Positions 6,001 to 9,000 of a stretch of 64,000 nucleotides of DNA are shown piece by piece; within the stretch, counting starts at the first letter, position 1, and every line of letters begins with the position of its first letter. The position numbers were made by a program. The DNA is taken from NCBI RefSeq assembly GCF_053078305.1, contig NZ_CP166879.1. One strand, written 5' to 3'.

Positions 6001-9000
6001 GCAATAGTGAGAACGCCAGACGTATCGTTGGTAAACAGGTCTGCAAGCCGACGAACATTACTGGCTTCATTGAGAATACGTTCTGCAATGACCAGTAATG
6101 CTTTGCCCGGTTCAGTCATGCCCAGCAATCGCTTACCTCGTCGAACAAATATTTCGATGCCAAGTTCATCCTCCAGTTCCCGAATATGACGGCTGACGCC
6201 TGACTGTGAGGTAAAAAGCATATTCGCAACCTCTGTCAGGTTGTAATCCTGACGTGCAGCTTCGCGGATTATCTTTAGTTGTTGGAAATTCACGGTAAAC
6301 TCCGGGCAGTTCAGATATCCCGTTATTGTTAAAGTCTAACGCCCGGCATAACAAATAATAAAAACCCGCATCTTATTCCATCCCGATATAACGCTTAGCT
6401 CACCAATTGCCACTGCCTTTTTTCCATCACTGGAGAACTAATCACTGACATTAACAACTCTTTCACTGCCTGTGCCTGTGGCGATAAGTTCGCTCTGGCG
6501 GGTAAATTTAATGACAAAGAGAGACTCATGGAAGGCGTGGTAATGCGTGACATCCACCCATTTACTGCGCCACATAACGAACGCGCGGCCGATTCGGGTA
6601 ATACTGCAACGCCCATGCCGCTGGCAATCGCTGCGGTAAGCGTGGCAATAGACTCAATTTCACCAATGACTTTTGCCGTGAGCCGCCGTAGGGAAAACGC
6701 CTCATCAACACGAAGTCTAACAGCGCTGTAATCACTGGGGAGAAAAAGGTTCATTTGTGCAATAGCATTAACATCAACGCTTTGCCCCGGGCAATCTTGA
6801 GTTCCTACCAGGAAAAGATCTTCTTTCAGCAAAGCCTGACTGGATACCCCAGCCACAGGGGAATGCTCATAAATCACCGCCATATCGAGTTGGTGATTTA
6901 TCAGTTTTTCGTTAAGCACTGCACCGCTATTTTCATGAAGATAGATAACGATCTCCGGGAATTCAGCGCGAACCGCCTGTAATAAGGGCATGGTGATGGA
7001 TGACGCAGCGGTTCCTGGCGCAAAGCCAATCGAGACTTGCCCCGATAATGCCTGACCAACGTTATGCACCGCCAGTTGGGCCTGCTCACACTGACGTAAA
7101 ATGGCCCGCGCATGGGTATAGAGAATTTTTCCGGCGTCAGTTGGCGTAACGCCCCGTTTTGTGCGAATCAAAAGTTGTTGATTTAACTCACCTTCCAGTG
7201 TGGCAACCTGCTGGCTGAGCGCTGGTTGTGCGATATGCAATACTTCAGCAGCCTGGGTCAGGCTACCAATATCTACAATTTTTACGAAGTATTTAAGGCG
7301 TCTGAAGTTCATGTTGCCTCCGGTTTTTAAGAATCGGCCCAAGTGCCGCCATTACTTACAACCAGATTGCAAGATGCTTGCCAGTTTTATTTTGGCGTTG
7401 ATGTACAAGCTAACCAACTGTCAAATAAGAGATTATGATAGATTCGTCATTGGCTCTTTTCACCAGCAGTCGCGTTCCCCTGCCCTATAAAAGGAGGGTA
7501 TGCACCACGATGGTTCATTACCAATAAGATTGAAATCTCATCACTTTGTTGAAATTGGCAGCAAACAAACAAAAAAATGCATTTCACCCTTTGACATCAC
7601 CATGCACTGCCATTAATATGCGCCCCGTTCACACGATTCCTCTGTAGTTCAGTCGGTAGAACGGCGGACTGTTAATCCGTATGTCACTGGTTCGAGTCCA
7701 GTCAGAGGAGCCAAATTCAAAAAAGCCTGCTTTCTAGCAGGCTTTTTGCTTTCTAATTACCAACGCTCTTAAAACATCTGTCTTGAACCAGAACTAATTT
7801 GCACAGGCATTCCCGATCGACGTTGCAACGCAGCATTTGCGCGATTCACATCAACTTCTTGCCCGTTGATAAACGCCCGCAAAGATGGGGTTACCGGCAA
7901 TGGCACTTTTCGGTCAGACTCATATTCTGCACGATTGCGCGACAGCGGCTCATGAACTTCCAGCCAGTTCGAGCCATCTGGTTCAGTGGTGTATTTTACT
8001 GGCTGGTCGATAATTTGCACACGCGTCCCAACAGGAACATTATCAAACAGATATTTGATATCGTCATTGCGCAGACGAATACAGCCCTGACTTACCCGGA
8101 GCCCAATACCAAAATTGGCATTGGTACCGTGGATGGCATACAACCTGCCAATATAAATCGCGTACAGCCCCATGGGATTATCGGGACCCGCAGGAACAAA
8201 TGCGGGCAAACTCTCCCCTCGTTTCGCATATTCGCGCCGAGTGTTCGGCGTTGGCGTCCAGGTTGGAGCTTCTTGTTTACGTTCAACGGTAGTCACCCAG
8301 TTACGCGGGGTTTCTCGCCCGGCCTGACCGATTCCAATAGGAAAGACTTCTACAGTATTACTGTCTGGCGGGTAGTAATAAAGACGCATCTCAGCGACGT
8401 TAACCACAATCCCTTTACGAACAGTGGCGGGCAAAATCAGTTGCTGCGGAATGGTGAGTTGCGAGCCAGACTTCGGCAAAAAAACATCAGCGCCCGGGTT
8501 CGCTTCAAGCATGTTACTTAACCCTTGCCCGTATTGTGCGGCAAAAGTCTCCAGCGGCTGGGTATTGTGATCAGGAACAGTTACAGTAAACGACTGCCCC
8601 ACTAAACGGCTACCCTCTGGAGGTAATGGATAAGTTACCGCCAGGCTAGTATGGCTGGCAAAAAGCAGAGCAAATGAGCAAAGAATATTTACACGACGCA
8701 TCATGTCCCTTTCCTAAGTCGCGAAAGCTATCCGTTAAGTATAGCTTTTATCAGACTTTTCGTTTTTAACTGTTCAAATCAGAAGTCGTATTCCCCGGTA
8801 GAACAATATTACTGGCAGCAAGTTCGCCCATGTTGTTATATATCGCACAGGCAGCTTCGATGATGGGCATCGCCAGAGCTGCGCCACTCCCCTCACCTAA
8901 ACGCATCTCCATATTGAGATAAGGCTCCAGCCCCAAATGCGACAGCGCTATACGCGCCCCTTTTTCTGCCGACAGGTGAGAAGGAATGAGATACGGTTTG

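What the first reader, a model, noticed from the sequence alone, without database searches (positions are those of the whole stretch)
7313..7637. Sigma-54 promoter match upstream of nac
On the minus strand at 7367..7384 the sequence cTGGCAagcatcTTGCAa gives the -24 GG and -12 GC elements with correct spacing, about 55 bp upstream of the nac start codon. This fits the known NtrC/sigma-54 control of nac and fixes the likely transcription start near 7355.
Basis: partly seen in the sequence, partly recalled or inferred. Interest (0 to 1): 0.3.

Follow-up and report, generated by a model that had tools for sequence, protein, structure and literature searches.

The report
Known sigma-54 promoter of E. 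coli nac

Summary
On the minus strand at 7384..7367 the sequence reads cTGGCAagcatcTTGCAa, 55 bp upstream of the ATG (7312) of a gene that is Nac (NCBIfam equivalog, 600 bits). It is the only exact TGGCA-N6-TTGCA in the 64 kb window (0.21 expected by chance).

The interpretation also holds, and it is already published. The same 17-mer, CTGGCAAGCATCTTGCA, is the sigma-54 ChIP-seq site listed for nac in E. coli K-12 (Bonocora 2015). That table marks it as an EcoCyc-confirmed promoter and predicts a start 45 nt before the ATG, which is window 7357.

Around it I found the rest of the known architecture:
- an NtrC dyad at 7517..7501, centred at -152
- a weaker dyad at 7497..7481, centred at -132
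- a Nac-type box at 7439..7425, centred at -75

In 45 close Nac orthologues from other genera, 89% have an exact -24/-12 core (0.1% of shuffles) and 89% have an NtrC dyad with at most 2 mismatches (0.3% of shuffles). The enhancer-to-promoter distance changes only in steps of about 11 bp.

Novelty: already known. Interest: low.

Two side observations: a conserved dyad in the same spacer belongs to the divergent tRNA-Asn promoter, and Pectobacteriaceae keep a 91-aa Nac made of the DNA-binding domain only, behind the same type of promoter.

The parts
7368..7384 (-). Sigma-54 promoter core of nac (nacp): CTGGCAAGCATCTTGCA. GG is at 7382-7381 (-25/-24) and GC at 7370-7369 (-13/-12).
   Evidence: Sequence read. 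It is the only exact match in the window. It is identical to the sigma-54 ChIP-seq motif for nac in K-12. The core is exact in 89% and within 1 mismatch in 100% of 45 close orthologous loci. It is the most conserved block of the spacer.
7357..7357 (-). Predicted transcription start (+1) of nac, giving a 45-nt leader.
   Evidence: Inferred from -12 = 7369 and from the rule used by Bonocora et al. (19 bp downstream of the motif centre at 7376; their 'Distance' column gives 45 for nac). It was not mapped directly here.
7501..7517 (.). NtrC binding site I, the stronger dyad of the enhancer: TGAACCATCGTGGTGCA, centred at -152.
   Evidence: It has 1 mismatch to TGCACC-N4-TGGTGCA; every other match in the window has 3 mismatches. 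A dyad with at most 2 mismatches is present in 89% of close orthologous loci against 0.3% of shuffles, and its centre is at -150..-154 in 38 of 44. It is a conserved block in the alignment. NtrC binding to this spacer is published.
7481..7497 (.). NtrC site II, a weak adjacent dyad: CCTCCTTTTATAGGGCA, centred at -132, 20 bp (two helical turns) from site I.
   Evidence: It aligns with the conserved TTACCCC-TTAT-GGGGCA dyad of other genera; the GGGGCA half is nearly invariant. The offset from site I is 20 bp in 9 of 14 scorable loci (range 18-22). Its identity as a low-affinity NtrC site is inferred from the motif and from my recollection of Feng et al. 1995, which I could not retrieve.
7425..7439 (-). 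Nac-type (LysR T-N11-A) box ATCATAATCTCTTAT, centred at -75, between enhancer and promoter. Candidate site for autorepression by Nac.
   Evidence: It matches ATC-N9-TAT, one base off the Nac consensus ATA-N9-TAT (the consensus is quoted). ATCA-N7-CTTAT is a conserved island across genera. A weak Nac ChIP-seq peak (coverage 5) lies at K-12 position 2060104, about window 7458. Its function is inferred.
7313..7356 (-). nac 5' leader, with the ribosome-binding site GGAGG at 7321..7317.
   Evidence: Sequence. GGAGGCAA immediately before the ATG is nearly invariant across genera.
6395..7312 (-). nac coding sequence (305 aa), the gene this promoter drives. cbl follows at 6293..5343.
   Evidence: ORF. 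NCBIfam Nac equivalog at 600.7 bits and Cbl equivalog at 685.2 bits. Pfam HTH_1 plus LysR_substrate. RefSeq annotation.

Best explanation
The site is nacp, the sigma-54-dependent promoter of the E. coli nitrogen assimilation control gene nac. RNA polymerase carrying sigma-54 binds the -24 GG / -12 GC element at 7384..7368 as a closed complex that cannot open on its own. When nitrogen is limiting, phosphorylated NtrC binds the enhancer about 150 bp upstream: a stronger dyad at 7517..7501 and a weak dyad 20 bp away at 7497..7481. It oligomerises there, reaches the polymerase by DNA looping, and uses ATP hydrolysis to open the promoter, so transcription starts at about 7357. Nac protein then probably binds the ATC-N9-TAT box at -75, between enhancer and promoter, and damps its own synthesis. 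What is shown: the sequence elements, their rarity in the window, their conservation, and the conservation of their spacing in whole helical turns (this work); sigma-54 and NtrC occupancy of this spacer and nitrogen-limitation induction (published). What is inferred: the exact +1, the looping step (from the spacing pattern and the general mechanism of NtrC-class activators), the role of site II, and Nac autorepression in E. coli.
For: The motif is exact and unique in the window. The same 17-mer is a sigma-54 ChIP-seq site flagged as confirmed for nac, and nac RNA rises under nitrogen limitation. There is an NtrC ChIP-seq peak at nac-cbl, 59.6-fold, comparable to glnALG at 71-fold. RpoN and NtrC genomic SELEX peaks fall in the nac/asnV spacer, at 86% relative intensity with RpoN holoenzyme and NtrC together. 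The nac promoter is silent in ammonium and induced about 60-fold at low glutamine, and it is described as having a weaker enhancer than glnAp2. The only close NtrC dyad in the window lies at -152. In 45 orthologous loci with at least 75% Nac identity, the exact core is present in 89% (0.1% of shuffles; 0% on the antisense strand) and an NtrC dyad with at most 2 mismatches in 89% (0.3% of shuffles); the median leader is 47 nt. Footprinting across 28 sequences shows conservation confined to these elements while the DNA between them has diverged. Enhancer-to-start distances fall into classes near 130, 142, 152, 164 and 175 bp, a period of about 11 bp (R = 0.68; 0 of 5,000 random sets reached it). 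This is what same-face looping predicts. K-12 is identical to the window in every element.
Against: No direct 5'-end mapping for E. coli could be retrieved, so +1 is predicted. The published NtrC ChIP peak interval (K-12 2059941-2060021, about window 7296-7376) sits over the promoter core and not the dyads, which is within fragment resolution but not base-precise. The left half of site I is degenerate in E. coli (TGAACC here, TGTTCC in two divergent E. coli lineages, against TGCACC elsewhere), and site II is weak. The Nac ChIP signal in the spacer is very low (coverage 5, against hundreds at strong targets). No IHF consensus was found between enhancer and promoter. The orthologous loci are phylogenetically related, so the conservation percentages overstate the number of independent observations.
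Confidence: 0.96

Rival explanations
1. The -24/-12 match is a chance or non-productive sigma-54 binding site, and nac is really transcribed from a sigma-70 promoter in the spacer.
For: Motif rarity alone is modest: 16 of 100 shuffles of the window gave at least one exact match. Bonocora et al. report that most of the 135 sigma-54 sites are transcriptionally inactive under their conditions. A weak sigma-70-like match (GTGAAA-17-TATCAT, 9 of 12) lies on the nac strand at 7463..7435.
Against: The site is position- and strand-conserved in 100% of close orthologues with at most 1 mismatch. It is paired with a conserved NtrC dyad at a phase-locked distance. It is bound by sigma-54 in vivo, and nac is induced under nitrogen limitation. 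The sigma-70-like match is weak, and its upstream hexamer lies in unconserved DNA. Its TATCAT overlaps the conserved Nac-type box, which accounts for the match.
Confidence: 0.02
2. The promoter is sigma-54-dependent but is activated by an enhancer-binding protein other than NtrC.
For: E. coli has several sigma-54 activators, and the left half-site of the main dyad is imperfect in E. coli.
Against: The dyad matches the NtrC consensus at 12 of 13 specified positions, and at 13 of 13 in Cedecea, Kosakonia and Erwinia loci. NtrC ChIP-seq and SELEX peaks lie in this spacer. nac follows the Ntr hierarchy along with glnK.
Confidence: 0.02

Closest known systems
nacp of Escherichia coli K-12 (Muse and Bender 1998; EcoCyc-confirmed; Bonocora et al. 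2015 site OS19)
   Same: It is the same locus. The -24/-12 block, both NtrC dyads, the Nac-type box, the leader and the ribosome-binding site are all identical, and the published 17-mer is identical.
   Different: There are only strain-level substitutions in the DNA between the elements, plus one 1-nt indel upstream of site I. The window is closest to strain F9792 (99.8% over 601 bp), not to K-12 (98.2%).
nac promoter of Klebsiella aerogenes / K. pneumoniae (Feng, Goss, Bender and Ninfa 1995, two papers)
   Same: The layout is the same: a sigma-54 promoter, an enhancer made of one strong and one adjacent weak NtrC site about 150 bp upstream, and a Nac site between enhancer and promoter that gives repression. 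The repression is cited as a documented case of a repressor bound between activator and sigma-54 promoter. The Klebsiella oxytoca locus L066 shows the same blocks at -151 and -131, with a 47-nt leader.
   Different: The DNA between the elements has diverged. The left half of site I is TGAACC in E. coli against TGCACC in Klebsiella. The details of the Klebsiella papers are from my memory, because those papers are not held.
glnAp2 and glnK promoters of E. coli (other NtrC/sigma-54 promoters)
   Same: They share the promoter class and the activator, with activation from upstream dyads by looping.
   Different: glnAp2 has two high-affinity NtrC sites and fires at low NtrC~P. nac and glnK have weaker enhancers and fire only on real starvation.

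Membership tests
Sigma-54 (RpoN) -24/-12 promoter | GG and GC doublets exactly 10 bp apart within TGGCAC-N5-TTGCW, on the strand of the downstream gene | tested here: met
   CTGGCAAGCATCTTGCA at 7384..7368. It is the only exact TGGCA-N6-TTGCA in the window. The published PSSM score of 11.669 is near the top of the intergenic sites listed.
Sigma-54 (RpoN) -24/-12 promoter | Suitable distance to the start codon, with no intervening gene | tested here: met
   The predicted +1 at 7357 gives a 45-nt leader to the ATG at 7312. The median leader is 47 nt (range 37-67) in 45 orthologous loci.
Sigma-54 (RpoN) -24/-12 promoter | Occupancy by sigma-54 holoenzyme | not testable with these tools
   This is published for the identical K-12 sequence: a ChIP-seq peak at 24-fold above threshold, and a genomic SELEX peak with RpoN holoenzyme in the nac/asnV spacer.
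Sigma-54 (RpoN) -24/-12 promoter | Transcription depends on rpoN and on an enhancer-binding protein; no basal activity | not testable with these tools
   From the literature only: nac is silent in ammonium and induced about 60-fold at low glutamine. nac RNA rises under nitrogen limitation and the promoter is described as previously characterised.
Sigma-54 (RpoN) -24/-12 promoter | Motif conserved in sequence and position at orthologous loci | tested here: met
   The core is exact in 89% and within 1 mismatch in 100% of 45 loci, against 0.1% and 2.2% of shuffles and 0% and 2% on the antisense strand. It is the strongest conserved block in the alignment.
NtrC-dependent enhancer | Dyad TGCACC-N5-GGTGCA roughly 100-200 bp upstream of the promoter | tested here: met
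   TGAACCATCGTGGTGCA at 7517..7501, 1 mismatch, centred at -152, and the only match in the window with fewer than 3 mismatches. It is conserved, with its centre at -150..-154 in 38 of 44 loci.
NtrC-dependent enhancer | Two or more adjacent sites on the same face of the helix, allowing oligomerisation | tested here: met
   A second conserved dyad lies 20 bp downstream of site I (window 7497..7481). The offset is 20 bp in 9 of 14 scorable loci. That this dyad binds NtrC is inferred from the motif.
NtrC-dependent enhancer | Helical phasing between enhancer and promoter | tested here: met
   The distances cluster at about 130, 142, 152, 164 and 175 bp, with a best period of about 11.25 bp (R = 0.68 on distinct distances; 0 of 5,000 random sets).
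NtrC-dependent enhancer | NtrC binding in vivo or in vitro | not testable with these tools
   Published: an NtrC ChIP-seq peak at nac-cbl, 59.6-fold, and an NtrC SELEX peak at K-12 2060070, about window 7425.
Nac (LysR-type) autoregulatory operator | ATA-N9-TAT (T-N11-A) motif bound by Nac, between enhancer and promoter | tested here: inconclusive
   ATC-N9-TAT at 7439..7425 is one base off the consensus and is conserved across genera. An exact ATA-N9-TAT at 7501..7487 overlaps the NtrC sites, but the other genera do not conserve it as ATA-N9-TAT. Only a weak Nac ChIP peak lies between the two motifs (coverage 5).

The most novel reading that the evidence does not exclude
Nothing about the promoter in the window itself is new. 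The most novel reading that the evidence allows comes from the comparison. The sigma-54/NtrC control module of nac may be the conserved unit. Its enhancer distance is free to change only by whole helical turns across Enterobacterales. In Pectobacteriaceae (Pectobacterium, Dickeya, Brenneria, Lonsdalea, Symbiopectobacterium) the same type of module drives a naturally truncated 91-aa Nac that consists of the DNA-binding domain alone and is under purifying selection. That would make it a nitrogen-starvation-induced regulator with a DNA-binding domain only.
Probability: 0.45. Interest if true: 0.3.

Novelty: already known. Interest (0 to 1): 0.07.

Why it matters
nac is the adaptor that links the sigma-54/NtrC nitrogen-starvation signal to sigma-70 promoters, so its promoter is a key node of the Ntr cascade. 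That is established knowledge. For the genome scan, the value of this result is as a positive control: a reader working from sequence alone located a real, experimentally confirmed sigma-54 promoter and placed its start within 2 nt of the published prediction. The comparative data add modest detail. They give a base-level map of which parts of the spacer are constrained, and they show that the enhancer-to-promoter distance changes only in steps of about 11 bp across genera.

Tried and rejected
1. The primary papers could not be read. Muse and Bender 1998 (PMC107004), Reitzer and Schneider 2001 (PMC99035), Bender 2010 (PMC2944532), Feng et al. 1995 (PMC177361) and Atkinson et al. 2002 (PMC135341) are not held. 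Statements about the Klebsiella footprints and primer extension therefore rest on my memory and are marked as such.

2. An IHF site (WATCAANNNNTTR) between enhancer and promoter: none on either strand.

3. RNA families in 7000..8000: only the tRNA passed. All other matches were far below their gathering scores.

4. The 46-aa ORF at 7587..7447 on the nac strand overlaps the enhancer. The homologous stretch of the alignment is variable apart from the NtrC dyads and carries indels at the upstream end of the ORF, so I treat it as spurious.

5. The terminator-like hairpin on the + strand at 7369..7381 is only the partial palindrome of the -24/-12 element itself (GCAAGATGCTTGC) followed by the A-rich tract read backwards. 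I rejected it as a terminator.

6. I first considered the conserved far-upstream dyad TTGCTGAC-AATT-TCAGCAA (window 7566..7548) as a third nac control site. I rejected that because it stays 78-79 bp from the tRNA-Asn 5' end while its distance to the nac start varies from -153 to -303, and it is absent where the tRNA is not adjacent.

7. Short (46-nt) megablast queries were meant to count exact conservation across 5,426 E. coli genomes. They give only lower bounds because of the 28-nt word requirement: at least 2,639 genomes identical for the promoter segment and at least 3,920 for the enhancer segment.

8. The scan also picked up four LysR paralogues, three from Betaproteobacteria (Rhodoferax, Polaromonas, Propionivibrio) and one from an unclassified proteobacterial MAG (L011). 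They are 51-55% identical to Nac over the full length where a full gene was available (the Propionivibrio locus gives only a 96-aa fragment). None has a credible upstream -24/-12 or NtrC motif, so they serve as informal negative controls.
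Full report
**What is in the sequence**

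GG lies at 7382-7381 and GC at 7370-7369, the canonical sigma-54 spacing. The ORF that follows starts at ATG 7312 and runs to 6395. It is Nac: NCBIfam equivalog NF008410, 600.7 bits against a cut-off of 309, over the full length of 305 aa. The next gene is cbl (685 bits), and upstream on the same strand lies the L,D-transpeptidase gene ldtA. A tRNA-Asn gene sits at 7638..7713 on the plus strand. The finding's range 7313..7637 is therefore the whole 325-bp spacer between the divergent nac and tRNA-Asn genes.

The window is Escherichia coli. A 601-bp query across the spacer matches 5,410 of 5,426 complete genomes over at least 80% of its length, annotated nac | tRNA-Asn | ldtA. The best match is 99.8% (strain F9792), and the K-12 derivative JM109 is at 98.2%.

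**Is it more than chance?**

The exact pattern TGGCA-N6-TTGCA occurs once in the 64 kb window on both strands, with 0.21 expected; 16 of 100 shuffles gave at least one match. Allowing one mismatch, the count (6) is at chance level (7.7 expected). Taken alone, the motif match is only suggestive.

The context is what carries the argument:
- The match is on the nac strand, 55 bp from the ATG.
- The single close match in the window to the NtrC dyad TGCACC-N4-TGGTGCA lies about 150 bp upstream of it: TGAACCATCGTGGTGCA at 7517..7501, with 1 mismatch. Every other match in the window has 3 mismatches.

**It is the published nac promoter**

Bonocora et al. 2015 (PMC4591121), Table 1, list intergenic sigma-54 ChIP-seq site OS19 with these values:

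| Field | Value |
|---|---|
| Peak centre | 2060018 |
| Fold above threshold | 24 |
| Motif | CTGGCAAGCATCTTGCA |
| Motif centre | 2060021 |
| Strand | minus |
| Gene | b1988, nac |
| Distance | 45 |
| PSSM score | 11.669 |
| EcoCyc column | C |

The motif is the same 17-mer as window 7384..7368. [quoted passage not shown] Its rule for the start site (19 bp downstream of the motif centre) gives a 45-nt leader.

Other published data agree:
- Brown et al. 2014 (PMC4066584) report an NtrC ChIP-seq peak at nac-cbl at 59.6-fold, comparable to glnALG at 71-fold.
- Shimada et al. 2021 (PMC8743547) report genomic SELEX peaks for RpoN holoenzyme, for NtrC, and for both together (86%) in the nac/asnV spacer.
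- A 2023 study (PMC10657418) describes the nac promoter as having a weaker enhancer than glnAp2. It was silent in ammonium and induced about 60-fold when glutamine fell.

The window and K-12 are identical in the -24/-12 block, both dyads, the Nac-type box and the leader. The few differences between strains lie in the DNA between these elements.

**Independent test by comparison**

To avoid presupposing the promoter, I found nac loci with a degenerate DNA pattern for the first 16 codons of nac. This returned 120 loci from Enterobacterales and a few outgroups. I then scanned their upstream regions.

In the 45 loci with a full-length gene at least 75% identical to the window's Nac:

| Measure | Observed | Control |
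|---|---|---|
| Exact TGGCA-N6-TTGCA on the sense strand | 89% | 0.1% of dinucleotide shuffles; 0% on the antisense strand |
| At most 1 mismatch to that core | 100% | 2.2% of shuffles |
| NtrC dyad with at most 2 mismatches | 89% | 0.3% of shuffles |
| Predicted leader length | median 47 nt | - |
| NtrC dyad centre | -150..-154 in 38 of 44 | - |

More distant orthologues (56-75% identity) keep the same plan with a looser core (TGGCC/TGGCG ... TTGCA/T) and the dyad mostly at -162..-166.

A MAFFT alignment of the window with 27 genera shows conservation confined to separate islands, while the DNA between them has diverged:
- NtrC site I
- a second dyad ending in GGGGCA, 20 bp downstream of site I (window 7497..7481)
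- ATCA-N7-CTTAT (window 7439..7425)
- AAACTGGCAAGCATaTTGCAA
- the ribosome-binding site GGAGGCAA

Over all loci with good motifs, the enhancer-to-start distances fall into classes near 130, 142, 152, 164 and 175 bp. The best period is about 11.25 bp, with R = 0.68 on distinct distances, and none of 5,000 random sets reached that value. Insertions and deletions have therefore been accepted only in whole helical turns. This is the signature expected if the activator must sit on one face of the helix to loop onto the polymerase. The loci are related by descent, so these percentages count lineages more than independent events. The contrast with the diverged flanks is still clear.

**Mechanism**

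*Shown:* the elements, their conservation and their phasing (this work); sigma-54 and NtrC occupancy and nitrogen-limitation induction (literature).

*Inferred from the general mechanism of NtrC-class activators:*
1. The sigma-54 holoenzyme sits at -24/-12 as a closed complex.
2. NtrC~P binds site I (-152) and, cooperatively, the weak site II (-132), and forms an oligomer.
3. The oligomer loops to the promoter and opens it with ATP hydrolysis.

The one-strong-plus-one-weak enhancer fits the published description of nac as a promoter that fires only at high NtrC~P.

The box ATC-N9-TAT at -75 is one base off the Nac consensus ATA-N9-TAT (quoted) and is conserved across genera. It lies between enhancer and promoter. 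The Klebsiella aerogenes nac promoter is cited as a documented example of a repressor bound between the activators and a sigma-54 promoter. In E. coli the only direct evidence I found is a weak Nac ChIP-seq peak (coverage 5) at K-12 2060104, about window 7458. I therefore rate Nac autorepression at this box as probable but not demonstrated here.

**Rivals**

- *A chance or silent sigma-54 site with a sigma-70 promoter doing the work.* This is contradicted by the conservation, the paired enhancer, the ChIP data and the induction data. The only sigma-70-like match on the nac strand is weak (9 of 12), and half of it lies in unconserved DNA.
- *A different enhancer-binding protein.* This is contradicted by the dyad sequence and by the NtrC ChIP and SELEX data.

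**Things that are not part of the promoter**

The spacer also holds the divergent tRNA-Asn promoter. There is a good sigma-70 match on the plus strand, TTGACA-17-TAATAT at 7591..7619. There is also a conserved dyad, TTGCTGAC-AATT-TCAGCAA (window 7566..7548, with 2 mismatches). That dyad stays 78-79 bp from the tRNA 5' end in 52 of 55 loci where the tRNA is adjacent. Its distance to the nac start varies from -153 to -303, and it is missing where the tRNA is not adjacent. It therefore belongs to the tRNA gene.

Rfam finds only the tRNA. A terminator-like call at 7369..7381 is only the palindrome within the -24/-12 element.

**Side observation outside the window**

In Pectobacterium, Dickeya, Brenneria, Lonsdalea and Symbiopectobacterium the Nac-like gene is only 91 aa long:
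- It contains the HTH_1 domain alone.
- All copies end at the same position, and a GC-rich hairpin follows the stop directly.
- tblastn finds no remnant of the C-terminal domain downstream.
- Synonymous codon differences outnumber amino-acid-changing ones 2,468 to 454.
- It still has a sigma-54-like core (TGGCGCG-N4-TTGCT), with the predicted start 22-23 nt from the ATG in 10 of the 12 loci and at a different position in two Pectobacterium loci. NtrC-type dyads lie near -165 and -187 in most of them.
- Public records name it variously LysR family regulator, "nitrogen assimilation regulatory protein (partial)" or hypothetical protein, and it occurs on hundreds of contigs.
- I found no paper on it in the held library.

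From memory, Muse and Bender (1999) showed that the first 100 residues of Nac carry its known activities. If so, a natural short form is plausible.

**Verdict**

The feature is the already known nacp promoter. Novelty: already known. Interest: low.

Noticed in passing
window 7548..7566 (dyad) and 7591..7619 (+ strand sigma-70-like promoter), upstream of tRNA-Asn at 7638..7713: A conserved inverted repeat, TTGCTGAC-AATT-TCAGCAA (TTGCTGCCAATTTCAACAA in the window), sits exactly 78-79 bp from the tRNA-Asn 5' end in 52 of 55 loci from many genera. Its position is independent of the nac promoter. It is probably an upstream activator site of the tRNA promoter (perhaps FIS-type), but the binding factor was not identified. 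The other tRNA-Asn in the window (5230..5305) has a weaker version at the same distance.
   Followed up: partly
Loci L015, L022, L043, L046, L064, L069, L071, L074, L086, L098, L113, L119 (Brenneria, Pectobacterium, Dickeya, Lonsdalea, Symbiopectobacterium): The Nac homologue is a 91-aa protein with the DNA-binding domain only (HTH_1). All copies stop at the same position, a hairpin follows the stop, and there is no C-terminal remnant. Synonymous changes exceed amino-acid-changing ones 5.4 to 1. It still lies behind a sigma-54-like promoter with NtrC-type dyads. It looks like a maintained 'mini-Nac' and not a pseudogene. Public annotations are inconsistent (LysR, 'partial', hypothetical).
   Followed up: partly
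window 7501..7517, compared with loci L025 and L075: The left half-site of the main NtrC dyad is degenerate in the Escherichia lineage (TGAACC in the window and in K-12; TGTTCC in two divergent E. coli genomes). Most other genera keep TGCACC or CGCACC. This could make the E. coli nac enhancer weaker still.
   Followed up: no
window 7487..7501: An exact Nac consensus ATA-N9-TAT (ATACCCTCCTTTTAT) overlaps the junction of the two NtrC dyads in E. coli. The other genera do not conserve it as ATA-N9-TAT. It may be a coincidence or an E. coli-specific second Nac site. The weak published Nac ChIP peak (about 7458) lies between this motif and the conserved box at 7425..7439.
   Followed up: partly
window 3582..5222 (-), 5230..5305 (+), 5343..6293 (-): The gene order downstream of nac is cbl, a second tRNA-Asn and a MATE-type transporter-like ORF, as expected for this E. 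coli region. The 546-aa ORF call begins at a TTG well upstream of the likely true start.
   Followed up: no
K-12 coordinates 2059941-2060021, about window 7296..7376: The published NtrC ChIP-seq peak interval for nac lies over the sigma-54 core and not over the NtrC dyads about 130 bp upstream. The same is true for glnK, glnH and gltI when the two papers' tables are compared. This suggests that those peak calls sit at the promoter end of the loop or are limited by fragment size.
   Followed up: no
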